A stretch of 64,000 bases of DNA, from the NCBI RefSeq assembly GCF_003018235.1, contig NZ_CP027437.1; one strand, written 5' to 3'. A program made the position numbers and the translations under genes. Within the stretch, counting starts at the first letter, position 1. Each line of letters opens with the position of its first letter. The notes under the pieces were generated by a model, which had not been told where the DNA came from, did not search any database, and worked only from the letters and a program-made list of their open reading frames with translations. Positions 2,714 through 49,363 of the stretch are shown here, piece by piece. This DNA is from Escherichia coli (lineage in GTDB: Bacteria > Pseudomonadota > Gammaproteobacteria > Enterobacterales > Enterobacteriaceae).

Positions 2714-3616
2714 CATCTCCTGCGGTACAACCGATTTCGCCAGCAACCATTCACGAAATTGCTGCAAGTGCGGTGAGTCAGACTTCTCTTCCTGCCACGT
2801 CATAATAAAACGATTACCGGTACGAATAGGCACATCACAGGGGATCACCATATCGCCACTATCCAAATCATGTTGAATAGCGAAACGTGGTAACAGCGCC
2901 ACGCCGAGATTAGAGCGCACGGCGGCAATCAGCATTGAAAGCAAATCGAAACGTGGTCCGTTGTTGACCAGCGGACTGCTAACGCCAGATAAGGCAAACC
3001 ACTCTTCCCAGCCAGTAATACGGGTACTTTGATGCAGAAGTGGTAACTCTGTAAGCAGTTCTGCCACTGACAGTTTTTGATCGGACATTGCAAGCAAACT
3101 GCCGCTGCATACCGGCAAAATCTCCTCATCAAAGAGATATTCTACTTCCGCCCAGGGCGCGCAAAAATTTTCGCGCATAATGACAGCATCGTACTCCCGA
3201 TTAAGAAAATCGCCGTTATTAGCTAAAGAGTGAATATTAACAATAATATCGGGATGTAACTTTGTGAATTCATGTAAATTTGGGATTAACCAGTGGGTAC
3301 TAAACGTAGGATTCACGGCAAGTTCAATAACCTGAACCGTAGGCTGCCAGGTCATAATGGTATTGGTATCGCGTTCCAGCTTATTTAATGTTTCTTTTAC
3401 TATCCCCAGGTAATACTTCCCTGCATCATTAAGAAAAATACGTTTTTTAGAGTGTGAAAATAACGGAGTATGTAAAAATTCCTCCAGCGCACTCACTTGT
3501 CTGAATACTGCACTTTGGGTCAACGCTAACTCCTCTGCCGCTTTGGTATAACTTTCATGACGTGCGACGACCTCAAAAGTCACCAGCAGCTCCGTTTTAG
3601 GTATTTTTCCTCGCAT
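2711..3616 (-). CDS. LysR-family transcriptional regulator
   Basis: 301-aa ORF with an N-terminal HTH (…YTKAAEELALTQSAVFRQVSALEEFL…) and LysR-type substrate-binding domain architecture. AT-rich upstream region at 3617-3900. Confidence 0.8.
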   Translation of the reverse strand: MRGKIPKTELLVTFEVVARHESYTKAAEELALTQSAVFRQVSALEEFLHTPLFSHSKKRIFLNDAGKYYLGIVKETLNKLERDTNTIMTWQPTVQVIELAVNPTFSTHWLIPNLHEFTKLHPDIIVNIHSLANNGDFLNREYDAVIMRENFCAPWAEVEYLFDEEILPVCSGSLLAMSDQKLSVAELLTELPLLHQSTRITGWEEWFALSGVSSPLVNNGPRFDLLSMLIAAVRSNLGVALLPRFAIQHDLDSGDMVIPCDVPIRTGNRFIMTWQEEKSDSPHLQQFREWLLAKSVVPQEM

Positions 3617-4180
3617 AATGCCGTCCCTTAAAAATAGTTTAAACCATCAAAAATACATTACTTATTACGAAGTAATGGTAACCAAAGCAGCAATAAATAA
3701 TTTATAAGAATCATGATTGACATTTATAACCCAGTAAGCCTGGCGTGACAAATATCTTAATCAGATAATAATAATCCGAAAAGCACAGCGCCTTTCGAAT
3801 TATCCGGAATCACATTAAGTGAAAATTATTAAATTGATATCATTTATCATATCTGTGGATATTATGATAAACAATCAACAAAGATTTTATTTTTGATTTA
3901 TAGCATATCCCTCTAAGAATTTTTGCGATGCTGCAATATCCGGGGTAAAGACCCGATCCTGGCTGACAAATGGCACGACTTGACGATAAGCGGTGAACAT
4001 CGCTTTTGTTGATTTACTTAACGCTACGGTCAAACGCTGGGAAGCCAGTGCATCAGGTAACGATTCGAAATTCGCCGTCGTTCTTATTCGTGGCTTGCGG
4101 TCGGTTGCGGCAATCCACAGTGGCTGTGGTCATGCAGTCAAGCCAGCGGTCAGATTTCGACCGTGGTTAACATTTAAGGC

Positions 4181-29947: not shown

Positions 29948-30856
29948 TACTGCTCCTGAGATATTAACAGGAGTAAGTGTAGACGTTGGGAAATGATGTT
30001 TGTGAAGTTAATCCTGTTGTAGCAGGGCAAAATTACGAAAGCACGCTCCCCGCAAGGACTGACGCCAGATAGTTTCTGTCCATGGCTGCCCTTTCCATTC
30101 AAACGTGAAATCAATAAGTTCATCAGGGACATCGCAAACAATATGAAGTCAGATTTCTTCTCTGCCGTGACTCTTTTCACTCATTGCGTAACTGTCATGC
30201 TCTGGATTATTTAATTCTTTCAGTGGAATTTTTTCCTCAAAGGCTTTATTTAGCCGCCCCTGATTTCCTTTTACAGCGAATAAATAATCACCTCCCTGTT
30301 TTTGTATCTTCTCTGCAATATCTTTCTGGCAACCCATCGCATCAGTTGTGATAATTTTTCCTTTAATATCCAACATGTTAAGAAGTTCAGGGGTAACTCT
30401 AATCTCATTGGATTTCTCATCCGTCTTGATCTGTCCGATGACCAGACTGTGCATTGTTCAGAACGCACTAATGACATGAATCGCTCCCCTGCGGCGACTC
30501 TTGTCATAAGAGTGCCGGAGCGTTTTTCCATCAATTGCAATGACGCCTTTATCATCTGAAGAATGGCAGTCACGCATCCAGTTAATAAAGCACTCGTGAA
30601 ATTTTGCAGGACTGATACAGGATACAACTCTGGCAATGGTATCGTGAACAGGAATACCATTTTCAAAATCACCATATTGTTTTAAAAAATCGAGATGTGT
30701 TTCCCCAAAATCCTCTATATCTTCCCAGCCTTCTGCACCAGAAATAACGGCACAAATAGTCAACAGTAGAATATCCGACAATTTATGTTCCACTTTCCAG
30801 GCTTGTCTGTAATCGGGAATAATAGAAATATGTTCCATCAGTTTTTTAAGTTCCAT
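29947..30856 (-). mobile_element. ISAs1-family (H-repeat-associated) transposase gene, disrupted (in-frame TGA at 30458-30460 and a downstream frameshift)
   Basis: Three consecutive minus-strand ORFs (30458-30856, 30149-30454, 29947-30180) which I recognise as pieces of an H-rpt/ISAs1-type transposase ([32 protein letters not shown]… / …[28 protein letters not shown]…). Confidence 0.75.
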
Positions 30857-31020
30857 TTTGTGCTCCTTAATTATGTAAGGAGTATTTGATCATGTATAAG
30901 CAATAAAAAACAGCTTCAGGTAATGAGGAATATCTCAATTTTTAAACATAAAATGCGAATTATTTAGCACAAAAAAGCAGCGTTACGTGATCTTTCCCTG
31001 GTGATAAACGAGAAATAAAT

Positions 31021-31053
31021 AAAAGGGGCGAGGCTGATTTCGCCCCCTTTTAT
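31021..31053. terminator. Probable intrinsic terminator downstream of the orphan immunity gene
   Basis: Hairpin aggggcga…tcgcccc flanked by A/T runs on both strands. Confidence 0.5.
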
Positions 31054-31056
31054 TAT

Positions 31057-31422
31057 TTAACAATATTTAACTTCATATTTCCCTATAATATCGAACACAT
31101 GGTCATAAGTACTGATAATTATGTGCTGAACTCCATCTCTTTGGATATCCTCTACTAAATCGAAACTTGATTTAGTATATTGTTCAAAAGGATAATCATC
31201 AACTTTGTATATAGATAACTTTTCAATTTTGCTAATAAAAAACTCGAGACTAATATCATAAGCATCTTTAATAGCAGGTTTGCAGGCAGACAACGATAAG
31301 GAAGCTTTGATGGTAAAGTTAAATGGATACAGATTTAACTCTGTCCCAGTTAAAATCAACGCATCTCGACCATATATTTGACCATATTTTGTTTCTAGTG
31401 CTTTTACAATCATATTAGCCAC
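31057..31422 (-). CDS. Putative immunity protein paired with the orphan Rhs C-terminal toxin
   Basis: 121-aa AT-rich ORF whose start (GTG 31422 or ATG 31413) abuts or overlaps the stop of the upstream orphan toxin frame, the usual toxin/immunity arrangement. No recognisable family. Confidence 0.55.
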   Translation of the reverse strand: MANMIVKALETKYGQIYGRDALILTGTELNLYPFNFTIKASLSLSACKPAIKDAYDISLEFFISKIEKLSIYKVDDYPFEQYTKSSFDLVEDIQRDGVQHIIISTYDHVFDIIGKYEVKYC

Positions 31423-31882
31423 AACCTCTTGTCCTCACTGTTCTGCCGCCATTTTGAGTTGAAAATCTTCGATCTAAATTAATTTTTGACAATTCCTCTG
31501 GAGTAGCCCATCTCGAAGGAATCTTCGATACACCGGCTGCTTTGGCAGCATAAAGTCGTCTGTTATCTAAAGTAAAGACTGAATCTTTATGAGCACCTTG
31601 TGATAACAATCTCTCTTGAACATTTACAGGTAAATCCCGCATTCTAACTTTTCTAATAGGTTCAACGTGATTTATATATGACGGGTCATTTATAAGTCTG
31701 TGAATAAGTCCATTAACATTTCTTCCGTCTTCAAAAACACCATTCATACTATCTTGTGAGAATAGAATTGTTTTAGGACTTACTGGTGATAATCCAAGAG
31801 GATCTATCCATGATAACGGGTTTGGAACATAACTATAGAGGTTTAATCCCCCCTCCAGCCCTATCGGGTCAGGATGCGCAAT
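31415..31882 (-). pseudogene. Orphan Rhs C-terminal toxin module (start-less fragment retaining only the DPxGL end of the Rhs core)
   Basis: Minus-strand frame reads …DPIGLEGGLNLYSYVPNPLSWIDPLGL followed by a ~125-aa unique domain (…MNGVFEDGRNVNGLIHRLIND…TLDNRRLYAAKAAGVSKIP…). The frame opens after a stop at 31883-31885 with no in-frame start until M at 31747. Confidence 0.7.
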
Positions 31883-32006
31883 CTACCTATCTGAACGATC
31901 GTACCATCAACTTCGTATATAAATTATCAAGACTGTAACGTCATAGCGCCATGACTTACTGTTATGATTTCATAAACAGGGAAGATATAATTCCTTACCC
32001 GATATA

Positions 32007-32435
32007 TTATTGGTGCTTCGATTTAAAAAACTCCCAATACTTTGGAGTATATCCTTTAAATGCTCTATGTTTCCCTTTTTCATAAGCTTTCAGGAAACAT
32101 TCGTAAGCCTCATCGTTTTCACCTAATTCTAGACAAACACCCCCTAAGTTAATCAGTTCAGATGTGGAATATAGTGGAATTTCACACTTAAAAATTTCAA
32201 CTGCCCAGTATTTTGCCTCATTATATTTTTTAAGGTCAAAATACACACCATAAATGCAACGAATCAACCATGCAGAAACTCCATCACCAAAAGAATATTT
32301 CGGCTCAGGTAAACTATCCCACAAAGAAAGATAAAGTTTTAAAGCACCATAGGCATCTCCTTGATCTTCAAGAACGTTACCATCTTCGATTTGCTTTACT
32401 ATGCTTTCTTCAAGCACTGGTCTGGTACTACTCAT
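32007..32435 (-). CDS. Putative cognate immunity protein for the main Rhs C-terminal toxin
   Basis: 142-aa AT-rich ORF 73 nt downstream of the Rhs stop on the same strand. No recognisable family. Confidence 0.55.
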   Translation of the reverse strand: MSSTRPVLEESIVKQIEDGNVLEDQGDAYGALKLYLSLWDSLPEPKYSFGDGVSAWLIRCIYGVYFDLKKYNEAKYWAVEIFKCEIPLYSTSELINLGGVCLELGENDEAYECFLKAYEKGKHRAFKGYTPKYWEFFKSKHQ

Positions 32436-32508: not shown

Positions 32509-35500
32509 CTATTTTATGATTGGCGGTACAATTGGAGGTGTCACTGGTGGTAAGTATACTTGACCAAGTTTAGCCCCAGCAGAACGGTTAAGAGAATAAT
32601 GATCCAAATAATAATTTTTTGAATCCAGCATCCAATCCCTGACAGGTTTAGACTTCGGCCCCAAAAATCTACCAGTATTATTCCACCATGTAACGGCATC
32701 TGTCTTATGAGACATATCTGCTTCACTTAATGGATGCCAGACACCTTCAGAATCTTTAAACTCCATCCGGGAACCTGTCCCTCTAATTTTTCCATCATTT
32801 CTCATCCGAGCAATAACCTCACGGCCTGTTCGGCTATTCTTCCCTGGGGTTCTTCCTAAGAAATCACAACGTTTTGACAGCCCTAATGGGTCAATCCACC
32901 CCAGCGGATTAGGCGCATAAGCATACAGGTTCAGCCCGCCCGCCAGCCCTATCGGGTCCGTTACCATGAACCGCCCGACATCCGGATCATAGTACCTGTG
33001 CAGATTGTAATGCAGCCCCGTTTCCCTGTCGAGGTACTGTCCCTGGTAGCGCAGGTTCTGCTCCACCCCGCCGTGGTCCTTCTCCTGTATCGTGTTACCC
33101 CAGACCTGATACCCCGTCTCCCACACGATTTTCCCGTCGCTGTCCGTCATCTCTTCCGGCGCGCCGTTCACATCCGTGTGAAAATACAGTATCCGGTTCG
33201 GGCCCTCTTTACCCACCTTATCCACCCGCGCCAGCGGTTCATAACTCCCCGGGTCGCTGTAGATATACAGGCTGCTTATTCCCTCCGGCCTGCTCTCCTG
33301 CGCCAGCCGCATTCCGTCCCATAAAAATGTCGTCCGGTTGTACGGTTTACCGTCAGGGCTGATGTGCTGTTTTTCCGTCCGCCTCCCCAGCGCATCGTAC
33401 ACATACCGGTACGTTCCCCGCGCTGTCGTCACTTCCACCATCCGGTGTTCCGCATCATAACGGTAACTCTGCGTGCCGCTCCGGCCCTCCTTTTCCACCG
33501 CACGGCCAAATTCGTCGTAACGGTAGTGCACACCACGGTAAGACATCAGCCGGTTGAACGGCACCACGCTGTTTTCTGCCGTGGCCCTTTCCCCCGCGCG
33601 CCGCGCCAGCAGGTTTCCCGCCGCGTCGTACTCCCAGCTCGCCAGATACCCCTCATCCTCCGAGCGGCACGCCGTGATGCGCCCCGTGGGGTCGTAGAAG
33701 TAATCCGTTTCCCCCCGCCGGCTGTGCCGCGTCTTCAGCAGTTCATCCTCGCCGCTGTAGCTGTACTGCCGGTCCGTGAACGTCTCCGGTACCACCCCGC
33801 GCATCCCGCTGTATGTCTCCCTGCGCTTCAGCCGCCCGGCGGGGTCATAAAGCTGCCGCGTGCTCAGTCGCCCCTGACTTCTGAGCACTTCCCGGTGCAG
33901 GGCGTCACGTGTGAACTCGCTGATGACCTCCCGGTCCAGATTTATCTGCTGGAGATGGCCGCTGCCGTAGTACAGATGACGCTGCGTTCTGCCGTCCGGA
34001 AAGGAGGTGGCTGTCCGGTTGCTGAGTTCATCGTACTGATGGGTCAGGACGCCCTGCGCCGTCTCCTCAGTCAGCATCCGCCCCAGTCTGTCGTAACTGA
34101 AGCGGATAATCTCCGGTGCGTCCATTTCCCCGGCATCCGACCGTCGGCGGCGGATTTCCAGTAGCTGGTCTGCCGCATCATGGACGTATTCCGTACGGCT
34201 ATCGGCTGTCTCCTTTGCCGTGAGCCGGCCCGCCGCATCACGTGCCAGCCGGTGGCGGATTTCACCGCCCCGGTCCCCTGTGAACACCACTTCCGTGACC
34301 GCGTTCAGCACGTTGTAACGGTACGTCTGGCGGCAGCCGTCCGGATTTATCTGCTCCGCCAGACGGTCCAGCACATCATGGCGGAACCGGTAGTTTTCTC
34401 CGTTCTCGTTCGTGAGCGTGACCAGACGCCCGTAAGCATCGTACCCGAACGCCGTCCTGCGCCCCGTCGCGTCTGTCCGGCTGCGCACCCGGCCCTGCCC
34501 GTCCCGCTGCCAGCGCGTTATCCTCCCCATCGGGCTGGTGTACTTCACGAGCCTGCCCGCCGCGTCCGACTGGTAATTCACCGTGCGGCCGTCCGCCAGT
34601 ATCACCTCCGTCAGGTGGCCGCTGTCGTCATACCCGTAGCGCGTGCTGTGGCTCTGCGCGTCTGTCATCCGTATCAGCCGCGTGCGTTCGTCGTAGAACC
34701 AGGCCGTCTGCGAGCCGGAACAGTCCGTGTGCCGCATGAGCTGTCCGTCTTCGTTCCACTGAAGGTATTTATTCCCCCCGCGCGCATCCGTTATCTGCAC
34801 CACCTGACCGTGGCGGTCATACTGATACCGGGTGTTCTGCTGCAGCGGGTCGGTCACCGCAAGAAGATTGCCGCGTTCATCGTACTCACAGCACCAGCTG
34901 TTCCCCGCCGCGTCCACCTCCGTTTCCGGCTGGTGCCACACCGGGTGCCACTGTGTCTGTGCCACCCGCCCCAGCGGGTCGTGCGTCTCCGTGATATGCC
35001 CCTGCCGGTCATACACATAGCGCCATTTGCCGCCCTGCGCATCGGTCATTCCCAGTAACAGCCGTTCTTCGTCGCTCCAGCGGAACGTCGTCACCTGCCC
35101 GGCTTCGTCCTGGTACGCCGTCACCTGGTTCTGCGCGTCCCACTGATGATAACGCGTGCGCCCCAGCCCGTCCGTCACGCACAGCCTGCGTGCCGCGAGG
35201 CTCCACGCCAGCCGGTACTGTTCACCGCTGTCCGTGTGGTGCCCCGTCACCCGCCACGCTGCGTCATCCGGGCCTTCATACCAGCCCCACTGGTAATAAT
35301 ACCCTTCGCCGCCCGGCTGGCGGTGCAGGGTCATGCAGTGGTTTTCGTCGTAAGCAAACTCGCGCAGCAGGTGCCCCGTGCTGTCGTACACGCCGTTCAG
35401 GTCGCCGGCCTCGTCATAGCGGTAACGACGCAGCAGTAAAGGAGCCGTCTCAGGGAAATGCTGATAAATCTGTGTCACCCGCCGGGGATGCGCCGCCAGT

Positions 35501-37188
35501 TCATAATGCAGACGGATGCACGGACGCTGCTGTTCACCGCTGATTTGCGTGATGCGCCCCAGCTCGTCGTAGTACAGATTCAGACAGTTGCTGTTGCGGT
35601 CGCCCAGCATTTTCAGCCGCTGGTGCTGCGGGTGATGCGGGTCGGCTTCAAACAGAAAAAACTGCCCGTCATCGCTGCTGATAAGCCAGTGCCCCTGCTC
35701 ACCCCGCCGTACTGCCAGTCCTTCGCCGGGGCTGTAAAACCCGCTCCCCGGCAGCACAGCCTCCATATCCAGGCGTCGTCCCATGCCCGACACAAAGGTC
35801 ATACAGTTTTCGTCAGCAGTACCCGGCGTGCGCACGAGGCTGACTTCATACATCACGCTCCAGCCCTGCCCGAACATCCCTTCCGTGCGGTCGTCACGAC
35901 TGCTGTACACGCGCTGCCAGTCCAGCGGAAAGTGGCCCGGCAGACTGAAGTCAAAATCATCGTCATCGGCCAGATATTTGGCTCCGGTGGCGGCATTGAC
36001 CGGATGCGGAAGGGCACTGATGGCCTTCTGCGTCATCACCCCCATCCCGACACTGGCAGCAAAACAGGCGATTTTAGAAAGCATTTTGCCCGGGCGAAGA
36101 AACATCAGCGCCACGGTTGCCACCAGGGTTATCTGCGACCTGCCGCTTCTGATATCCCTGACCACCAGTAACGGACCGCCAATGCGGACATCCGGTGACA
36201 CAAACGCCCCGTTCCCCGGCTCATTCACCACCCTGGCCTCGCAGGTGCAGCGTGCCCCGCTGCGTGCCGCCGGCTGGCTGTTGATACGCACATCCCGCGC
36301 GCCTTCCGCGATATATTCCGCTGCGGGCGGTTCATCATCGCCTTTGAACAGATTACTGATGCTGCCAATAACCGCATTCACTCCCTGAAAGGCGGTTTCC
36401 AGCATACCGCCCGGACTCAGCAGGTTAAGGGCCGTTCCCAGGGGGTCATCCAGAAAGGCGGCTTTTTTTTGTGCGAGAAACTGCGTCAGTGAGGAGGGAT
36501 GTTTATGGCAGTCGATTTTATCGTCAGGGGTCGGGGTGGAGCCCGGGGCCGCACTGGCCACGGTGGGCTGCCATAGTTCCGACACAAAATGTGTCACGCC
36601 ATCCACCATTTCAGAACGCCCTTCTTCCGTACTGAGCTGGTCATGCAGCGCCCGGGACATCAGCACAGGCCCTGTCACCGGGTTAACCGCCAGGGCTATG
36701 GCCCCCGCCATTTCCAGATATTCCCCGGCCACATCCAGGAACGTTCTGGCGTCCTCCTGACGCTGCGCTTCTTCCTGTTCCGCCTTCGCCTGCGCCTCCT
36801 GCGCCTCAATGTCCTGCCGCGATGCCGCAGTCGCCGCGGCCCGCGCGGCAGGTTTGCTGTTGATCCATGTGTCGCCAGAGCCGGTGAGGATGTAACCTTC
36901 AATCTGAGGCGGGAAAAGCATATTTGCGAGGTCTGAACAGACTTCGCTGACCTTTTCTGTCACGCCGGTGTACACCATCGCCACACCCGCCACAAAACCG
37001 GTCAGCACGACGGCCGTGCACCCCATAGTGATCCCCGCTGACGTCGCCAGTAACGAGGTTGTGCCGACAATGAGGGCATCAATAACGACATTTGCGGCCA
37101 CCTCCAGCACCGCCCCCAGCACATCTGCCATAAACGACGTATGCAGCAGGGCATCACCCTGCCTTGCCGCCCAGAATGCCTCTTCCAT
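32509..37188 (-). CDS. Rhs-family polymorphic toxin with N-terminal prePAAR motif, transmembrane segments, PAAR-like motifs, YD-repeat core and variable C-terminal toxin domain (putative T6SS-delivered effector)
   Basis: 1559-aa ORF. N-terminus [16 protein letters not shown] matches AARxxDxxxH; hydrophobic stretches follow; PAAR-like motifs (…WINSKPAAR…, …[11 protein letters not shown]…); many YD repeats; core ends [27 protein letters not shown], then a ~120-aa tip. Core is very GC-rich, tip AT-rich. Confidence 0.85.
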   Translation of the reverse strand: [1559 protein letters not shown]

Positions 37189-37206
37189 GTCCCGTTCCCT
37201 GTGTGA

Positions 37207-37436
37207 TTAATTCGTCCCGGCTTCCTGCCGCATCCTGAAGCGCAGATTCTTTTTAATTTCAGCCCAGCGCGTCATATCTGCCGGGGTCAGCGGTGTGGTT
37301 CTGGCGTAGGTGAAGGCCATCATGACCCGCTCACCCGGCAATACAAATGCCACCTGACACTGGTACACCTGCTCGTTACCCCGGAGAAACTGGCTCTGTA
37401 TTTGCAAACCGCCTCATTGAGATAATATTCCGTCAT
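37207..37436 (-). pseudogene. Possible remnant of an Eag/DUF1795-like chaperone gene immediately upstream of rhs
   Basis: ATG at 37436 with an AGGA RBS gives MTEYYLNEAV… then terminates; the +1 frame continues as …QIQSQFLRGNEQVYQCQVAFVLPGERVMMAFTYARTTPLTPADMTRWAEIKKNLRFRMRQ, ending 19 nt before the rhs start. Family assignment is from memory and weak. Confidence 0.35.
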
Positions 37437-38190
37437 AATAGAAGTCGTCCTTTTTAATAAATGAATTATTTATTGACAGGTTCTGTTTTTTAATCATGAA
37501 TGTAATGTCTATCACCGCTTTACAGCACTCTTTATCTTTCAAGCGGTAATCACTAATAACATTAAGCAATTACCCATATTTACAATGACCGGAACTGATA
37601 TGCCGTTATGTATTTAACAATCCCAACATATTCACCATACCAATAAAATCACGAGTAACAAACACGCTACCGCCTCCATATAAAAAATGGACAGCTTATA
37701 AAATTGCATCTTGCATAGAAAGGGCTGAGATATCGAGTGTATTTTAATTATCAACTATAAATCTTGAATATTTTCATTAACAGAAACACATCTTATCCCA
37801 TTAGATATGTTAACAATCAATTATTCTTAACATATCACTAAAGTATATATTACTCTCTTTACTATCTGTTTTTATTGCGGTAGCGATATTAATAGCAAAA
37901 TTCGGAATTTATTTAGATGCTGGAATAAGAAAAAATGATGACGGCTTTCTTACCTTACCCTGAAGTTTCAGGAAAGTGTGTAAGGAAGGATGCAACCTAA
38001 CTGGAGATTTCTGAGGATCTAGTTGCTTAGAGCGACAATGAAGGTGAACGCATCCAGAGTAGTCCTATGAAAGGATACTATTGAAAATTGATGCTAAAAC
38101 AGTGATTAAATGAACAACACCATGGAACCCGTTGATTCAAAACGCCTAAACCAGCCCCCTGATACGAGGCTGGCTTAAACGCGCAGGCAA

Positions 38191-38397
38191 TCAGTAAAAA
38201 TCACCAGTTGCCTTTTCTGCCTGATCCATCCACACCGGTTTCTCGCTGGTTTTCGACCAGACGCGGTGCAGGTAGCTGTAAAAGCGGGCGCGGTCTTTCC
38301 AGAAAAGCATGAAAGGCAGCGCCAGAACGCCCGCTGCAACCGCATAAGTACGGCGTAAAAAGATAAGCCATGCAGGATATTCTCTGTAGAGTTCCAT
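38191..38397 (-). CDS. ybfA: DUF2517-family small protein
   Basis: 68-aa ORF ([40 protein letters not shown]…). Confidence 0.9.
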
Positions 38398-38604
38398 ACT
38401 TTTCTCCCCCTTTTGTATCTACCCGGTGAATGGCACCGGAAAAATGAATTTGTTTATCTGATGAAAATAGTACCGCCTTTTGTGTAATTTTACTACTCAT
38501 CCGACCACTTATTTTTGCTTATTGATGGTTTATTTACATTCATACCGTAATTAAGTTACACAAAGGTTAAATTAATACTAAACATTAGTTAAATCATGGC
38601 TTTT

Positions 38605-38709
38605 GCCATTTTTATACTTTTTTTACACCCCGCCCGCAGATTTTTGCGAAATCTTTGCAGCCAGAATTCTACCCTTCCGGTATCACTTTTAGGCCACTGG
38701 AGGTGCACT
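38605..38709 (+). promoter_or_regulatory. kdpFABC promoter region with a KdpE-binding T-rich repeat
   Basis: TTTTTATACTTTTTTTACA at ~38609-38629, immediately upstream of kdpF; resembles the KdpE operator as I recall it. Confidence 0.55.
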
Positions 38710-38799
38710 GTGAGTGCAGGCGTGATAGCCGGCGTGTTGCTGGTGTTTTTATTACTGGGTTATCTGGTTTATGCCCTGATCAATGCGGAGGCGTTCTGA
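38710..38799 (+). CDS. kdpF: K+-transporting ATPase small subunit F
   Basis: 29-codon ORF starting at [32 protein letters not shown]. Its stop overlaps the kdpA ATG. Confidence 0.85.
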
Positions 38800-40472
38800 T
38801 GGCTGCGCAAGGGTTCTTACTGATCGCCACGTTTTTACTGGTGTTAATGGTGCTGGCACGTCCTTTAGGCAGCGGGCTGGCGCGGCTGATTAACGACATA
38901 CCTCTTCCCGGTACAGCGGGCGTTGAACGTATACTCTTTCGTTTACCTGGCGTCTCTGACAGTGAGATGAACTGGAAGCAGTATCTCTGTGCCATTCTCG
39001 GCCTGAACATGCTGGGGCTGGCGGTGCTGTTTTTTATGTTGCTCGGTCAGCACTATCTGCCGCTTAATCCACAGCAGTTGCCAGGGCTGTCGTGGGATCT
39101 GGCGCTGAATACCGCCGTCAGCTTTGTCACCAATACCAACTGGCAATCTTATAGCGGTGAAACCACGTTGAGCTATTTCAGCCAGATGGCGGGCTTAACG
39201 GTACAAAACTTTCTTTCTGCCGCCAGCGGGATTGCGGTGATTTTTGCCCTCATTCGTGCGTTTACCCGCCAGAGCATGAGCACACTCGGGAATGCCTGGG
39301 TCGATCTGTTACGTATCACGTTATGGGTGCTAGTCCCTGTGGCGTTGTTGATCGCACTGTTTTTTATTCAACAAGGTGCACTGCAAAACTTTCTGCCCTA
39401 TCAGGCGGTGAATACCGTTGAAGGAGCGAAACAGCTGTTACCCATGGGTCCGGTGGCTTCTCAGGAAGCGATAAAGATGCTCGGCACTAACGGCGGTGGC
39501 TTCTTTAATGCCAACTCGTCGCATCCGTTTGAAAACCCAACCGCACTGACCAACTTCGTGCAGATGCTGACGATCTTCTTGATCCCAACGGCACTGTGCT
39601 TTGCCTTTGGCGAAGTGGCGGGCGATCGCCGTCAGGGGCGCATGTTGCTGTGGGCGATGTCAGTGATTTTTGTCATCTGCGTAGGCGTGGTGATGTGGGC
39701 AGAAGTTCAGGGTAATCCTCATCTGCTGGCGCTGGGTGCGGACAGCAGCATCAATATGGAAGGTAAAGAGAGCCGTTTCGGCGTGCTGGTCAGTAGCCTG
39801 TTTGCGGTCGTGACTACGGCGGCTTCCTGTGGCGCGGTGATTGCGATGCATGATTCGTTTACCGCTCTCGGTGGCATGGTGCCGATGTGGCTGATGCAAA
39901 TTGGTGAAGTGGTATTCGGCGGTGTCGGTTCTGGTCTTTACGGCATGATGCTGTTTGTTCTGCTGGCGGTGTTTATTGCCGGGCTGATGATTGGTCGTAC
40001 ACCGGAATATCTGGGTAAAAAAATCGACGTACGTGAGATGAAACTGACCGCGCTGGCGATTCTGGTCACCCCGACGCTGGTGCTGATGGGCGCGGCGCTG
40101 GCAATGATGACCGACGCCGGACGTAGCGCCATGCTCAACCCTGGCCCGCATGGTTTTAGCGAAGTGCTGTACGCCGTGTCATCCGCCGCTAACAACAACG
40201 GCAGCGCCTTTGCCGGATTAAGCGCCAACTCTCCGTTCTGGAACTGTTTACTGGCGTTCTGCATGTTTGTCGGTCGCTTCGGGGTGATTATCCCGGTGAT
40301 GGCAATTGCCGGTTCGCTGGTGAGTAAAAAGAGCCAACCCGCCAGCTCCGGCACATTGCCAACGCACGGCCCGCTGTTTGTTGGCCTGTTAATCGGCACC
40401 GTGTTGCTGGTTGGCGCACTGACCTTTATCCCTGCCCTGGCGCTTGGTCCGGTGGCGGAATATCTCTCCTGA
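38799..40472 (+). CDS. kdpA: K+-transporting ATPase subunit A
   Basis: 557 aa from [30 protein letters not shown]. The ORF track extends upstream, but the start is set by the kdpF overlap. Confidence 0.95.
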
Positions 40473-45801: not shown

Positions 45802-46475
45802 CAAACGTTCTGATTGTTGAAGATGAACAGGCTATTCGTCGCTTTCTGCGCACGGCGCTGGAGGGCGATAGGATGCGCGTCTTTGAGGCCGAAACGCTGC
45901 AACGCGGCTTGCTGGAAGCGGCTACCCGTAAGCCAGATTTGATTATTCTCGATCTCGGCCTGCCCGATGGTGATGGGATTGAGTTTATCCGCGACCTGCG
46001 CCAGTGGAGCGCAGTGCCGGTGATTGTGCTTTCCGCACGTAGCGAAGAGAGCGACAAAATCGCCGCGCTGGATGCCGGAGCGGATGATTATCTGAGTAAG
46101 CCGTTTGGCATTGGCGAATTGCAGGCCCGTCTGCGCGTCGCATTACGCCGCCACTCTGCCACCACCACGCCCGATCCGCTGGTGAAATTTTCCAATGTTA
46201 CCGTCGATTTAGCGGCTCGAGTGATCCATCGCGGTGAGGAAGAGGTGCATCTCACCCCGATTGAGTTCCGCCTGCTGGCGGTGTTGCTTAATAATGCGGG
46301 AAAAGTGCTCACCCAGCGCCAGCTCCTTAACCAGGTGTGGGGGCCAAACGCGGTCGAACACAGTCATTATTTGCGTATTTATATGGGGCATCTGCGACAA
46401 AAACTGGAACAGGATCCCGCCCGCCCACGCCATTTCATTACTGAAACCGGTATTGGGTATCGGTTTATGCTTTGA
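45798..46475 (+). CDS. kdpE: Response regulator KdpE (OmpR family)
   Basis: 225-aa ORF ([37 protein letters not shown]…). Confidence 0.95.
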   Translation: MTNVLIVEDEQAIRRFLRTALEGDRMRVFEAETLQRGLLEAATRKPDLIILDLGLPDGDGIEFIRDLRQWSAVPVIVLSARSEESDKIAALDAGADDYLSKPFGIGELQARLRVALRRHSATTTPDPLVKFSNVTVDLAARVIHRGEEEVHLTPIEFRLLAVLLNNAGKVLTQRQLLNQVWGPNAVEHSHYLRIYMGHLRQKLEQDPARPRHFITETGIGYRFML

Positions 46476-46749
46476 ATTGTTATTCAATAAATTCGCTTTA
46501 ATAGTGATTAATTTATTATTAAACCTGCTCCAAATATTATTATTTGGCAGGTTTAATTTCTTAACGCAAATATAAAACACGAAATTACAACATTTAAGTA
46601 ACAAAACAGCATCTAATATAGCAATATTCATAATTAATGATTTATTATCTGGGGTATGATCGTTTTTTTTTGATCTTCTTCACAGATTATAGCCATTTCA
46701 TGGATAGAATAACTCTACCTTCAACTGACACAGCAAGAGGTAAAGGTAA

Positions 46750-46854
46750 ATGGAAAATAATAACCGCTTAATGCCTCATATAAGGCGGACAACCCATATC
46801 ATGAAGTTTGCCCATCGTAATAGTTTTGACTTTCATTTCTTTAATGCCCGCTAG
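46750..46854 (+). CDS. speFL: speF leader / ornithine-sensing ribosome-arrest peptide
   Basis: 34-codon ORF MENNNRLMPHIRRTTHIMKFAHRNSFDFHFFNAR, ~310 nt upstream of speF. Not in the ORF track (below its length cutoff). The HIRRTTHIMKFAHRNSFDFHFFNAR portion matches SpeFL as I recall it. Confidence 0.75.
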   Translation: MENNNRLMPHIRRTTHIMKFAHRNSFDFHFFNAR

Positions 46855-47164
46855 TCTTCTGACTAAAGGGCACCCCAACGTACAGGTCTCCCTGACTTTA
46901 AGCATTACAGGTTAATACCTGTATCCTTCGGTGCTCATATACTGCTAACCCTTTTAAACTCTAAATAATTCGAGTCGCAGCACTTGCAACTTGAGGTATG
47001 ACGAGTATAGCCAGTTACCGGGCTGGTCTGGGTTATTGCATCTACAAAAAGCAAACTACTGATTTATTTATCAGCGGTGGGGTTTTGCTTTTTTTCCGGC
47101 GTGATCGATTTCTCCTTTGAGAAATTGAGGACCTGCTATTACCTGAAATAAAGAGATGAACAAA

Positions 47165-49363
47165 ATGTCAGAATTAAAAATTGCCGTTAGTCGTTCTTGC
47201 CCGGATTGTTTTTCAACTCATCGCACATGCGTGAATATTGACGAAAGTAATTATATTGACGTTGCCGCCATTATTTTATCGGTCAATGATGTGGAACGTG
47301 GAAAACTCGATGAAATAGACGCTACTGGCTATGGCATTCCTGTTTTTATTGCAACGGAAAATGAAGAACGTGTACCCGCAGAATATCTGCCACGTATTTC
47401 TGGTGTCTTCGAACATTGCGAATCACGTAAAGAGTTTTATGGACGTCAGTTAGAAACCGCTGCAAGCCATTATGAAACGCAACTGCGCCCGCCCTTCTTC
47501 CGCGCACTGGTCGATTATGTTAATCAGGGCAATAGTGCTTTTGACTGCCCTGGTCATCAGGGGGGTGAGTTTTTCCGTCGCCATCCGGCAGGCAATCAGT
47601 TCGTGGAATACTTTGGTGAGGCGCTGTTCCGTGCTGACTTGTGCAACGCCGACGTAGCGATGGGCGATCTGCTGATTCACGAAGGCGCGCCATGCATTGC
47701 ACAGCAACATGCGGCTAAAGTCTTTAATGCCGATAAAACCTATTTCGTTTTAAACGGTACTTCATCTTCTAATAAAGTGGTCTTAAACGCATTGCTGACG
47801 CCGGGCGATCTGGTGTTGTTTGACCGCAATAACCATAAATCTAACCACCACGGTGCGTTGCTACAGGCTGGCGCGACACCGGTTTATCTGGAAACCGCAC
47901 GTAACCCGTATGGTTTTATCGGTGGTATTGACGCTCACTGTTTTGAAGAAAGTTACCTGCGTGAGCTGATTATAGAAGTTGCACCGCAGCGGGCAAAAGA
48001 GGCTCGTCCTTTCCGCCTCGCCGTTATTCAGCTAGGCACTTACGACGGTACGATTTATAACGCCCGTCAGGTGGTGGATAAAATTGGTCATCTGTGTGAC
48101 TACATCCTCTTTGACTCCGCATGGGTCGGCTATGAGCAGTTTATCCCGATGATGGCGGACTGTTCACCACTGTTGCTGGATCTTAATGAGAACGATCCGG
48201 GTATTCTGGTTACGCAATCCGTACATAAACAGCAGGCTGGTTTTTCTCAAACTTCACAAATCCATAAAAAAGACAGCCACATCAAAGGGCAACAGCGTTA
48301 TGTACCGCACAAACGCATGAACAACGCCTTTATGATGCACGCCTCCACCAGCCCGTTCTATCCGCTGTTTGCCGCACTGGATATCAACGCCAAAATGCAT
48401 GAAGGTGTCAGCGGTCGTAATATGTGGATGGATTGTGTGGTAAATGGCATTAATGCCCGCAAACTGATCCTCGATAACTGTCAGCATATTCGTCCGTTCG
48501 TACCTGAACTGGTGGATGGTAAACCCTGGCAGTCGTATGAAACAGCGCAAATTGCGGTTGATCTGCGCTTCTTCCAGTTTGTACCAGGGGAACACTGGCA
48601 TTCTTTTGAAGGCTATGCAGAGAATCAATACTTTGTTGATCCGTGCAAACTGTTGCTGACAACCCCAGGTATTGATGCACGTAACGGCGAATATGAAGCG
48701 TTCGGTGTACCCGCGACGATTCTTGCTAATTTCCTGCGCGAAAATGGCGTAGTGCCGGAAAAATGCGATCTTAACTCCATCCTCTTCCTGCTGACTCCAG
48801 CAGAAGATATGGCCAAACTTCAGCAACTTGTTGCCCTGCTGGTACGCTTCGAAAAACTGCTGGAATCTGATGCGCCGCTGGCGGAAGTGCTACCTTCCAT
48901 CTACAAACAGCATGAAGAGCGCTACGCCGGTTATACGCTTCGTCAGTTGTGCCAGGAAATGCATGATTTGTATGCCCGCCACAACGTGAAACAACTGCAA
49001 AAAGAGATGTTCCGTAAGGAACACTTCCCACGCGTCAGCATGAATCCGCAAGAAGCTAACTACGCCTATTTACGCGGTGAAGTGGAGCTGGTTCGTCTGC
49101 CGGATGCAGAAGGCCGTATCGCTGCCGAAGGTGCGCTTCCTTATCCTCCGGGTGTGCTGTGTGTTGTTCCGGGTGAAATCTGGGGTGGTGCTGTTTTGCG
49201 TTACTTCAGCGCTCTGGAAGAAGGGATCAACCTGCTGCCAGGTTTTGCACCGGAGCTGCAGGGTGTCTATATCGAAGAACATGATGGTCGTAAGCAAGTT
49301 TGGTGCTATGTCATCAAGCCTCGTGATGCGCAAAGCACCCTGTTGAAAGGGGAAAAATTATGA
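47165..49363 (+). CDS. speF: Inducible ornithine decarboxylase
   Basis: Start at the ATG giving MSELKIAVS… (732 aa). Confidence 0.95.
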   Translation: MSELKIAVSRSCPDCFSTHRTCVNIDESNYIDVAAIILSVNDVERGKLDEIDATGYGIPVFIATENEERVPAEYLPRISGVFEHCESRKEFYGRQLETAASHYETQLRPPFFRALVDYVNQGNSAFDCPGHQGGEFFRRHPAGNQFVEYFGEALFRADLCNADVAMGDLLIHEGAPCIAQQHAAKVFNADKTYFVLNGTSSSNKVVLNALLTPGDLVLFDRNNHKSNHHGALLQAGATPVYLETARNPYGFIGGIDAHCFEESYLRELIIEVAPQRAKEARPFRLAVIQLGTYDGTIYNARQVVDKIGHLCDYILFDSAWVGYEQFIPMMADCSPLLLDLNENDPGILVTQSVHKQQAGFSQTSQIHKKDSHIKGQQRYVPHKRMNNAFMMHASTSPFYPLFAALDINAKMHEGVSGRNMWMDCVVNGINARKLILDNCQHIRPFVPELVDGKPWQSYETAQIAVDLRFFQFVPGEHWHSFEGYAENQYFVDPCKLLLTTPGIDARNGEYEAFGVPATILANFLRENGVVPEKCDLNSILFLLTPAEDMAKLQQLVALLVRFEKLLESDAPLAEVLPSIYKQHEERYAGYTLRQLCQEMHDLYARHNVKQLQKEMFRKEHFPRVSMNPQEANYAYLRGEVELVRLPDAEGRIAAEGALPYPPGVLCVVPGEIWGGAVLRYFSALEEGINLLPGFAPELQGVYIEEHDGRKQVWCYVIKPRDAQSTLLKGEKL

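What the first reader, a model, noticed from the sequence alone, without database searches (positions are those of the whole stretch)
37437..38190. ~750-bp strongly AT-rich non-coding leader between the rhs locus and ybfA
The stretch has no convincing ORF and is much more AT-rich than the flanking core genes, with repeated A/T tracts. This fits a horizontally acquired, probably H-NS-bound regulatory region controlling the eag-rhs unit. It could also hide a small RNA or decayed genes.
Basis: seen in the sequence. Interest (0 to 1): 0.25.

Follow-up and report, generated by a model that had tools for sequence, protein, structure and literature searches.

The report
AT-rich spacer upstream of an Rhs island
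The 754 bases are real AT-rich non-coding DNA at the edge of a rare, horizontally acquired Rhs toxin island in E. coli; they are a patchwork of a gene terminator, a spacer with a few conserved blocks that probably regulate the toxin genes, and a scrap of an old vgrG gene, so the finding is ordinary apart from those unexplained blocks.

Summary
Window 37437-38190 has GC 0.345 against 0.513 for the whole window, no credible ORF, no Pfam hit and no Rfam hit.

The interval has three parts:
- **38131-38190:** core DNA, the ybfA terminator hairpin.
- **About 37517-38130:** an AT-rich spacer. It is single-copy, never annotated, and found in 198 of 5426 complete E. coli genomes.
- **37437 to about 37516:** the last bases of a vgrG gene plus the vgrG-eag spacer. 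They came along when an eag-rhs module was copied out of a vgrG-eag-rhs island.

Across seven alleles (80-96% identity) the spacer diverges about as fast as synonymous sites in kdpA. Three invariant runs of 30, 22 and 25 nt stand out (permutation p <= 0.0004). A 33-bp palindrome and a 15-codon hydrophobic ORF open in all alleles are also present.

My best reading is an acquired promoter, operator and 5' UTR region for eag-rhs, probably silenced by H-NS. H-NS binding is inferred from base composition only, and A/T tracts and the H-NS motif are not enriched beyond composition. I found no evidence of a small RNA. The eag gene next to the interval is itself a pseudogene. Interest is low.

The parts
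38131..38190 (-). Core DNA: the ybfA 3' flank with an intrinsic-terminator-like hairpin. The 17-bp stem spans about 38142-38182 and is followed by GUUUUGAAUC.
   Evidence: It is shared with the K-12/O157-type rhsC locus, and homology ends at about 38131. The fold is -31 kcal/mol with z = -4.5. GC is 0.53.
37517..38130 (-). AT-rich non-coding spacer specific to this locus, and the main body of the finding. It is single-copy and accessory.
   Evidence: GC is 0.30-0.41. It is in 198 of 5426 genomes and never annotated. There are no matches in the plasmid or phage collections apart from one mislabelled chromosome. It has no Pfam or Rfam hits. Seven alleles are 80-96% identical.
37806..37931 (-). 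Conserved core of the spacer, containing invariant runs 37891-37920 (30 nt) and 37842-37863 (22 nt). This is a candidate promoter and operator region.
   Evidence: It has 8-10 variable columns per 50, against 15-25 in the rest of the spacer (second conserved block aside). For the longest run, permutation p = 0.0004; three runs of 19 or more were never reached in 5000 permutations. The sigma-70 candidates are weak but conserved: TTGATT-19-TAAGAT with its -10 ending at 37790, and TTAATG-15-TATAGT ending at 37754.
37804..37836 (.). A 33-bp near-perfect palindrome, GATATGTTAACAAT-caatt-ATTCTTAACATATC. It could be a binding site for a dimeric protein or form a hairpin.
   Evidence: The arms are 14 nt and 93% complementary. 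Folding gives z = -3.4 on the minus strand and -4.4 on the plus strand. It is kept in 6 of 7 alleles. In the most distant allele one pair changes on both sides and stays paired, one becomes a wobble pair and one is broken.
37662..37686 (-). Invariant 25-nt block TTTTTATATGGAGGCGGTAGCGTGT. It holds a GGAGG and the start of two overlapping tiny ORFs.
   Evidence: It is invariant in all 7 alleles. Its GCGGTAGCG is perfectly complementary to CGCTACCGC at 37877-37885 in the conserved core, but the long-range duplex is not better than in shuffles.
37632..37679 (-). Candidate tiny ORF of 15 codons plus a stop, MEAVACLLLVILLVW. This is unproven.
   Evidence: It is open with the same start and stop in all 7 alleles. 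The first 10 codons carry only synonymous changes (5 of them) and the last 5 codons carry non-synonymous changes. It ranks at the top of a six-frame scan but is not significant after multiple testing. No Shine-Dalgarno sequence precedes its ATG.
37437..37516 (-). Stub of a vgrG 3' end (about 37486-37516, reading ..AVIDITFMIKK) plus the former vgrG-eag spacer (about 37437-37485), which carries the eag ribosome-binding site AAGGA.
   Evidence: It is homologous to the vgrG-eag junctions in L009 (79% over 104 nt, E = 1e-20) and L017 (76% over 107 nt, E = 2e-15). tblastn against the VgrG C-terminus gives 47% over 17 aa, E = 0.05. Full eag copies sit behind vgrG in the same genomes, and homology starts 68-73 nt upstream of the eag ATG.
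37207..37436 (-). The eag (DUF1795, 'DcrB-related') pseudogene, with a 223-nt internal deletion and a frameshift. It lies outside the finding but is its downstream partner.
   Evidence: Aligned with the intact 453-nt eag genes of D6 and L017. RefSeq marks the same gene 'incomplete' in L001 and L004.
32509..37188 (-). The Rhs toxin gene (1559 aa) that the spacer precedes. Its membrane-spanning, PAAR-type N-terminal class is my reading of the sequence, not a tested result.
   Evidence: ORF listed. It is 95.8% identical over 4511 nt to the rhs linked to vgrG in L017.
38191..38397 (-). ybfA, a core gene on the same strand, upstream of the spacer.
   Evidence: It is 97-100% identical across loci.

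Best explanation
The interval is the non-coding left junction of an accessory Rhs toxin island that occupies the ybfA-ybgA hotspot in about 3.6% of E. coli genomes.

**Shown: anatomy, read in the direction of transcription (minus strand)**
1. The core ybfA terminator.
2. About 610 bp of AT-rich, single-copy spacer specific to this locus.
3. About 80 bp that are the tail of a vgrG gene plus the vgrG-eag spacer. These were carried along when an eag-rhs module was copied out of a vgrG-eag-rhs operon.

**Inferred: function**
- The copied module came from inside an operon, so it brought no promoter of its own.
- Transcription of eag-rhs must therefore start in the AT-rich spacer, or read through the ybfA terminator.
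- Most of the spacer drifts at roughly the neutral rate. A roughly 125-bp core (37806-37931, with a 33-bp palindrome) and a 25-nt block (37662-37686) are held constant.
- I read these as the promoter and operator, and as an element of a long 5' UTR, possibly a tiny upstream ORF.
- At 70% A+T over more than 500 bp, the spacer is the kind of DNA that H-NS coats and silences. The unit is therefore probably off under laboratory conditions.
For: **Boundaries and distribution**
- Core and island meet at about 38131, and the terminator hairpin is confirmed.
- The spacer is in 198 of 5426 genomes, single-copy, with no annotated feature under any listed match.
- The alternative K-12-type rhs leader is in 3885 of 5426 genomes.

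**Origin of the eag-proximal end**
- The vgrG stub and the origin of the module rest.

**No hidden gene detected**
- There are no protein or RNA family hits.

**Rate of change**
- Spacer identity to the window is 80.5% in L011, where four-fold sites of kdpA are 80.4% identical. In D6 the figures are 88.9% and 90.2%.
- Three invariant runs of 30, 22 and 25 nt exceed permutation expectation, p <= 0.0004.
- The palindrome is supported.
- Weak sigma-70 candidates, conserved across alleles, lie just downstream of the palindrome.

**Context from the literature**
- K-12 has a silenced, protein-occupied domain in and around rhsC at this chromosomal position (PMC8282354).
- The neighbouring kdpF-ybfA spacer is listed as an H-NS site (PMC3946193).
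- In Salmonella, full-length rhs is not transcribed in culture and the adjacent SPI-6 is silenced by H-NS (PMC7043789).
- That AT-rich acquired DNA is an H-NS target is established knowledge, which I recall rather than tested here.
Against: - No promoter scores well. The tool scan found 1 promoter-like site against 4.0 +/- 1.7 in shuffles, and the position-weight-matrix candidates reach only 5-10 bits.
- The H-NS high-affinity motif and A-tracts are not enriched beyond composition.
- There are no expression or occupancy data for this allele.
- The invariant blocks could reflect recombination history or mutational cold spots rather than selection.
- In this window eag is a pseudogene, so the 'unit' may be decaying. 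Any regulatory function could be vestigial here.
- In about 50 genomes ISEc1 splits the spacer between the conserved core and the 25-nt block. Those strains tolerate the break, although the insertion may also rewire expression.
Confidence: 0.6

Rival explanations
1. The spacer is inert junk. It is left over from the insertion and recombination events that built the island, and has no regulatory role. The conserved blocks would be accidents of shared ancestry or recombination.
For: - Average divergence equals that of neutral sites.
- There are indels of 10, 11 and 27 nt, and a 1.3-kb IS insertion is tolerated.
- No strong promoter, motif or structure signal was found.
- The eag gene is decayed in the window allele.
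Against: - Three invariant runs of 22-30 nt among alleles that otherwise differ at 35% of columns are very unlikely under a uniform rate, p <= 0.0004.
- They persist in the 80%-identical allele L011.
- The module was copied from inside an operon and needs a promoter from somewhere.
Confidence: 0.22
2. The spacer hides a small unannotated gene. One option is the 15-codon hydrophobic ORF (37632-37679, minus strand), acting as a leader peptide or as a small membrane peptide of the type I toxin kind. The other is a small RNA made from the conserved core.
For: - The ORF is open with the same start and stop in all 7 alleles, and its first 10 codons carry only synonymous changes.
- Its start lies in a 25-nt invariant block.
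- That block is complementary over 9 nt to the conserved core.
- Stable local folds lie in 37717-37916, with z about -3.
Against: - The ratio of synonymous to non-synonymous changes is not significant after correcting for about 300 windows and frames.
- No Shine-Dalgarno sequence precedes the ATG. The overlapping GTG frame, which does follow GGAGG, changes almost only non-synonymously.
- Fifteen residues are short for a membrane span.
- There is no Rfam match to any type I antitoxin or small RNA family.
- There is no canonical terminator inside the spacer.
- The covariation term is +1.31, which means no support.
- The long-range duplex is matched by 10% of shuffles.
Confidence: 0.12
3. The whole spacer is a heavily decayed gene, for example the rest of vgrG or another island gene.
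For: The end nearest eag really is a vgrG stub. Weak similarity to vgrG may extend about 40 nt further upstream.
Against: - tblastn with a full VgrG finds nothing beyond the last 17 residues.
- Six-frame pieces have no Pfam hit.
- GC of 0.30 contrasts with about 0.50 for vgrG.
- Indels are not multiples of three.
- No frame stays open beyond about 50 codons.
Confidence: 0.05

Closest known systems
AT-rich, H-NS-silenced regulatory regions of horizontally acquired islands (xenogeneic silencing), such as Salmonella SPI-6 T6SS/rhs and the silenced domain around K-12 rhsC
   Same: - It is accessory DNA about 18 points lower in GC than its surroundings.
- It lies upstream of a T6SS-type Rhs toxin unit.
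- The same chromosomal position in K-12 is a protein-occupied, transcriptionally silent domain (PMC8282354).
- In Salmonella, full-length rhs is not expressed in culture, and the adjacent SPI-6 is reported as H-NS-silenced (PMC7043789).
   Different: - No occupancy or expression data exist for this sequence.
- The H-NS nucleation motif is not enriched.
- The sequence is unrelated to the K-12 rhsA/B/C leader.
Canonical vgrG-eag-rhs operons, such as the E. coli vgrG island next to ansP/yncE (L017) and Escherichia sp. E1V33 (L009)
   Same: The eag-rhs part is a close paralogue: rhs is 95.8% identical and eag 97-99%. The last roughly 80 bases of the finding are the same vgrG-eag junction.
   Different: Here vgrG is gone apart from about 30 nt, and about 610 bp of unrelated AT-rich DNA takes its place. 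The module has lost its operon promoter and its dedicated VgrG. In this window eag is also broken.
Upstream leader-peptide ORFs and type I toxin small ORFs (Ibs/Sib, Ldr/Rdl and others; recalled from knowledge)
   Same: A very short hydrophobic ORF lies in a conserved block of a long putative 5' UTR. Potential long-range pairing covers its start region.
   Different: - It has only 15 codons.
- There is no Shine-Dalgarno sequence.
- No antisense RNA is evident.
- There is no Rfam hit.
- It is single-copy.
- There is no statistical support for coding.

Membership tests
Xenogeneically silenced (H-NS-bound) acquired DNA | A+T content clearly above the genome average over several hundred bp | tested here: met
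   GC is 0.30 over 37437-37950 and 0.345 overall, against 0.513 for the window. This is the lowest 1% of 754-bp windows.
Xenogeneically silenced (H-NS-bound) acquired DNA | Accessory or horizontally acquired distribution | tested here: met
   It is in 198 of 5426 complete E. coli genomes. The core boundary is at about 38131, and most genomes carry a different rhs leader.
Xenogeneically silenced (H-NS-bound) acquired DNA | H-NS occupancy in vivo and derepression in an hns mutant | not testable with these tools
   No ChIP or RNA-seq data are available for a carrier strain. Only analogies from the literature apply.
Xenogeneically silenced (H-NS-bound) acquired DNA | Enrichment of the high-affinity nucleation motif TCGATAAATT (motif recalled from knowledge) | tested here: not met
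   There are 2 matches with up to 2 mismatches, against 1.7 +/- 1.3 in shuffles. The region ranks 57th of 168 windows. This feature is supportive rather than essential.
Known small RNA or cis-regulatory RNA families (Rfam 15) | Covariance-model match | tested here: not met
   Only two chance-level hits to eukaryotic families, E about 0.5, far below the gathering scores.
Structured RNA of any kind | Conserved structure with compensatory changes, or stability beyond shuffles | tested here: inconclusive
   The covariation term is +1.31, and 7 of 195 pairs show double changes. Local z is about -3 only around the palindrome. The long-range duplex is matched by 10% of shuffles.
Protein-coding gene | ORF conserved in frame across alleles with an excess of synonymous changes, or a family hit | tested here: not met
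   No ORF of 25 aa or more is conserved, indels are not multiples of three, and there are no Pfam hits. A 15-codon ORF remains inconclusive.
vgrG remnant (pseudogene stub) | Sequence homology to a vgrG 3' end in the position it holds in vgrG-eag-rhs operons | tested here: met
   DNA matches to two vgrG-eag junctions have E = 1e-20 and 2e-15. The in-frame peptide AVIDITFMIKK aligns with AIDVAFMTKK*. Only about 30 nt of vgrG remain.
K-12-type RhsA/B/C element leader | Homology to the sequence between ybfA and rhsC in K-12/O157 | tested here: not met
   Homology stops about 60 nt after ybfA, and the rest does not align.
Sigma-70 promoter | -35 and -10 hexamers with 16-18 nt spacing, close to consensus | tested here: inconclusive
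   Only one 9-of-12 match was found, at 37465-37493, and it is not conserved. The conserved candidates score 5-10 bits.
Type I toxin-antitoxin locus | Small hydrophobic toxin ORF plus an overlapping or adjacent antisense RNA | tested here: not met
   A hydrophobic 15-codon ORF exists, but there is no antisense RNA signal, no Rfam family hit and no strong promoter on the opposite strand.

The most novel reading that the evidence does not exclude
The conserved core, the palindrome and the invariant 25-nt block form an undescribed control module for an 'orphaned' eag-rhs toxin unit. In this reading an operator-controlled promoter drives a long 5' UTR. Translation of a tiny hydrophobic upstream ORF, or pairing between that ORF's start region and the core, would then gate expression of the Rhs toxin independently of any T6SS cluster promoter.
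Probability: 0.1. Interest if true: 0.45.

Novelty: new member of a known kind. Interest (0 to 1): 0.15.

Why it matters
How Rhs toxin genes are switched on is poorly understood, because most are silent in culture. This locus is a natural case in which an eag-rhs module was cut out of its vgrG operon and placed behind unrelated AT-rich DNA. The few invariant blocks in that DNA are a short list of candidate control elements to test. Otherwise the region is a routine example of AT-rich acquired DNA at an island junction. It does not change how such regions are understood.

Tried and rejected
- **Rfam:** an E-value scan of 36800-38900 gave nothing.
- **Pfam:** the ten longest stop-free six-frame pieces gave nothing.
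- **VgrG remnant beyond the stub:** tblastn of a full VgrG against the spacer matched only the last 17 residues.
- **Plasmid and phage collections:** no homologues were found, apart from one chromosome mislabelled as a plasmid.
- **Genome-contig scan with the Eag protein:** it returned only one species, Escherichia sp. E1V33. This showed the vgrG-eag junction but found no homologue of the spacer outside E. coli.
- **Metagenome scan with an invariant 22-mer:** it gave 7 contigs, all at the same ybfA locus. They were useful as extra alleles but added no new context.
- **RNA structure:**
  - The alignment fold has no covariation support.
  - The long-range helix between 37876-37920 and 37631-37675 (-27.4 kcal/mol) is matched by 10% of shuffles.
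- **Promoter scans on both strands:** they gave only weak candidates.
- **H-NS motif and A-tract enrichment:** neither is enriched.
- **Longer ORFs:**
  - The 40-aa and 51-aa minus-strand ORFs are broken by indels in other alleles.
  - A hydrophobic 49-aa stop-free stretch on the plus strand (37814-37960) has no start codon.
- **Shigella small RNA paper:** its candidate Ssr3 lies in the other spacer, between ybfA and kdpA, so it is not relevant here.

Full report
**1. Observation**

The window is an E. coli-type chromosome segment. On the plus strand kdpFABC starts at 38596. On the minus strand lie ybfA (38191-38397), a remnant of eag (37207-37436) and a 1559-aa Rhs toxin gene (32509-37188). 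The finding's coordinates are exactly the gap between the ybfA stop codon and the eag start codon.

GC is 0.345 over the 754 bp. It is 0.30 for 37437-37950, 0.41 for 37951-38130 and 0.53 for 38131-38190. The whole window is 0.513, and only 1% of 754-bp windows are as low. The longest stop-free stretch is 52 aa, below what shuffles of the same composition give (66.6 +/- 14.4).

The 'repeated A/T tracts' are not more frequent than the composition predicts: 13 runs against 11.8 +/- 2.9.

**2. Distribution and boundaries**

The spacer core (37700-38100) occurs in 198 of 5426 complete E. coli genomes. It is single-copy in all but one of them, and none of the listed matches has an annotated feature under it. 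In all six carrier genomes whose neighbourhood I fetched it lies between ybfA and an eag-rhs unit.

Most genomes (3885 of 5426) instead carry the unrelated K-12/O157-type rhs leader. Alignment with an O157 locus shows that homology ends about 60 nt after ybfA, at window position about 38131.

Those 60 nt form a 17-bp-stem hairpin (-31 kcal/mol, z = -4.5) followed by a short U run. This is the ybfA terminator and it is core DNA.

Four of the seven other alleles carry a further 27-nt insertion after the terminator that completes a perfect palindrome. The window has lost it.

**3. The end nearest eag is a vgrG stub**

A genome scan with an intact Eag protein found Escherichia sp. E1V33. There eag follows a 664-aa vgrG with a 51-nt gap.

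Window 37414-37512 aligns with that junction (79% over 104 nt, E = 1e-20). It also aligns with the junction in E. coli strain 181.1, in a vgrG island next to ansP/yncE.

In frame, the window reads ..AVIDITFMIKK where VgrG ends ..AIDVAFMTKK*. In the window allele the stop codon has been removed by a 4-nt deletion.

Most genomes with the ybfA-locus copy also have the copy linked to vgrG. Homology between the two begins 68-73 nt upstream of the eag ATG, and the rhs bodies are 95.8% identical over 4.5 kb.

The ybfA-locus eag-rhs is therefore a paralogue cut out of a vgrG-eag-rhs operon, with the break inside the last roughly 30 nt of vgrG. A full-length VgrG finds nothing else in the spacer, and six-frame pieces have no Pfam hit. 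The remaining roughly 610 bp are not recognisable gene debris.

In the window, eag itself has a 223-nt internal deletion and a frameshift.

**4. How the spacer evolves**

Four alleles from complete genomes and three more from metagenome contigs give seven classes that are 80-96% identical.

The spacer is far more diverged (85-93%) than the adjacent eag (97-99%), the rhs N-terminus (96-98%) or ybfA (97-99%). Its divergence is of the same order as four-fold degenerate sites in kdpA:

| Allele | Spacer identity to window | kdpA four-fold site identity |
|---|---|---|
| L011 | 80.5% | 80.4% |
| D6 (L002) | 88.9% | 90.2% |

On average the spacer drifts about neutrally. The high identity of eag-rhs probably reflects exchange with the paralogous copy (inference).

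The drift is not uniform. Of 694 columns, 65% are invariant. Even so, there are invariant runs of 30 nt (37891-37920), 22 nt (37842-37863) and 25 nt (37662-37686).
- For the longest run, permutation p = 0.0004.
- Three runs of 19 or more never occurred in 5000 permutations.

A roughly 125-bp core (37806-37931) has 8-10 variable columns per 50, against 15-25 in the rest of the spacer; the only other stretch that low is the block at 37631-37705. It contains a 33-bp palindrome with 14-nt arms that are 93% complementary.

**5. Searches for a hidden gene**

- *RNA families.* There is no Rfam match.
- *RNA structure.* The consensus fold has a positive covariation term, which means no support. It pairs the core with the 25-nt block, including a perfect 9-nt complement, CGCTACCGC with GCGGTAGCG. 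The best duplex (-27.4 kcal/mol) is reached by 10% of dinucleotide shuffles.
- *The 15-codon ORF.* The ORF at 37632-37679 (minus strand, MEAVACLLLVILLVW) is open in all seven alleles.
  - Its first ten codons change only synonymously, five times, mostly among Leu codons.
  - Its last five codons change non-synonymously.
  - It ranks first in a six-frame scan but is not significant after multiple testing, and it lacks a Shine-Dalgarno sequence.
- *The overlapping GTG frame.* This frame does follow GGAGG, but it changes almost only non-synonymously.
- *Longer ORFs.* They are broken by indels in other alleles.

I keep the tiny ORF as a lead, not a finding.

**6. Regulatory reading**

The module came from inside an operon, so it needs a promoter. 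Consensus scans give only weak candidates.
- The only 9-of-12 match (37465-37493) is not conserved.
- The best conserved candidates lie just downstream of the palindrome. They are TTGATT-19-TAAGAT, with its -10 ending at 37790, and TTAATG-15-TATAGT, ending at 37754.

A start site there would give a 5' UTR of about 320-350 nt containing the 25-nt block.

H-NS binding cannot be tested here.
- For it: the composition, which rests on established knowledge that I recall rather than tested.
- For it: a silenced, protein-occupied domain in and around rhsC at this position in K-12 (PMC8282354).
- For it: H-NS listed at the adjacent kdpF-ybfA spacer (PMC3946193).
- For it: silence of full-length rhs and H-NS silencing of the adjacent SPI-6 in Salmonella (PMC7043789).
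- Against a special H-NS site: the nucleation motif and A-tracts are at chance level.

**7. Verdict**

- The region is acquired and non-coding, and it probably regulates eag-rhs.
- H-NS binding is plausible but unshown.
- There is no evidence of a small RNA.
- 'Decayed genes' is true only for a vgrG stub of about 30 nt and for the neighbouring eag.

The new points are the three-part anatomy, the vgrG origin of the proximal end, and the short list of invariant blocks. This is an ordinary island junction with a few testable elements, so interest is low.

Noticed in passing
window 37207-37436 (minus strand): The eag chaperone gene (DUF1795, 'DcrB-related') in front of rhs is a pseudogene here. 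It has a 223-nt internal deletion and a frameshift. Strains D6, 14EC033, E148 and M1 have it intact (453 nt). If this Rhs is still delivered, it would need the Eag encoded at a vgrG-linked paralogous locus like the one in strain 181.1 (L017).
   Followed up: yes
L003 7709-9000 and L006 7711-9000, equivalent to window ~37684-37693: In about 50 complete genomes an ISEc1 element (ISAs1 family) is inserted in the spacer. It sits immediately next to the invariant 25-nt block, in the same orientation as eag-rhs. In L003 it comes with a roughly 100-nt deletion. It separates the conserved core from eag-rhs.
   Followed up: partly
L017 6024-12838 (E. coli 181.1, next to ansP/yncE); L009 (Escherichia sp. 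E1V33): Carrier genomes usually hold a second copy, a vgrG-eag-rhs unit whose rhs is 95.8% identical to the window's. Identity along the ybfA-locus unit is mosaic. For example, the rhs N-terminus is 90% identical to L001 but 98% to D6, while the spacer is 99.5% identical to L001. This suggests gene conversion between the copies.
   Followed up: partly
A3 columns 72-98, between window 38129 and 38130: Four of the seven alleles carry an extra 27 nt right after the ybfA terminator that completes a perfect 12-bp-stem palindrome (ACGTCTTCCATG ATAATTAA CATGGAAGACGT). It is missing from the window and from L016, apparently by slippage between TCTTCCAT and TTTCCAT. Its function is unknown.
   Followed up: partly
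window 37877-37885 and 37665-37673: There is a perfect 9-nt G+C-rich complement, CGCTACCGC with GCGGTAGCG. It links the conserved core with the GGAGG/start block, in otherwise 30%-GC DNA. Both arms are invariant or nearly so across alleles. It is not statistically exceptional as a duplex.
   Followed up: yes
window 38398-38595: The kdpF-ybfA spacer is just as AT-rich (GC 0.318) but is core DNA, 95-100% conserved. It is listed as an H-NS site with divergent promoters in K-12 (PMC3946193). A Shigella study predicted a small RNA (Ssr3) there and detected it by RT-PCR (PMC4782007).
   Followed up: no
window 30149-32435: The far end of the island holds three things: a frameshifted ISAs1 (H-repeat) transposase (30149-30856), an orphan toxin-immunity-like ORF pair (31057-31747), and the presumed Rhs immunity gene (32007-32435). 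All lie in DNA of 30-38% GC. None of these functions was tested here; they are read from ORF translations and position.
   Followed up: no
window ~3100-4080 and ~46330-47300: Two further stretches with GC below 0.38 over 754-bp windows lie elsewhere in the window. I did not examine them.
   Followed up: no
L007 5822-6000: The K-12/O157-type rhs leader occurs at a median of two places per genome in 3885 of 5426 genomes. It is part of the repeated RhsA/B/C element, unlike the single-copy leader studied here.
   Followed up: partly
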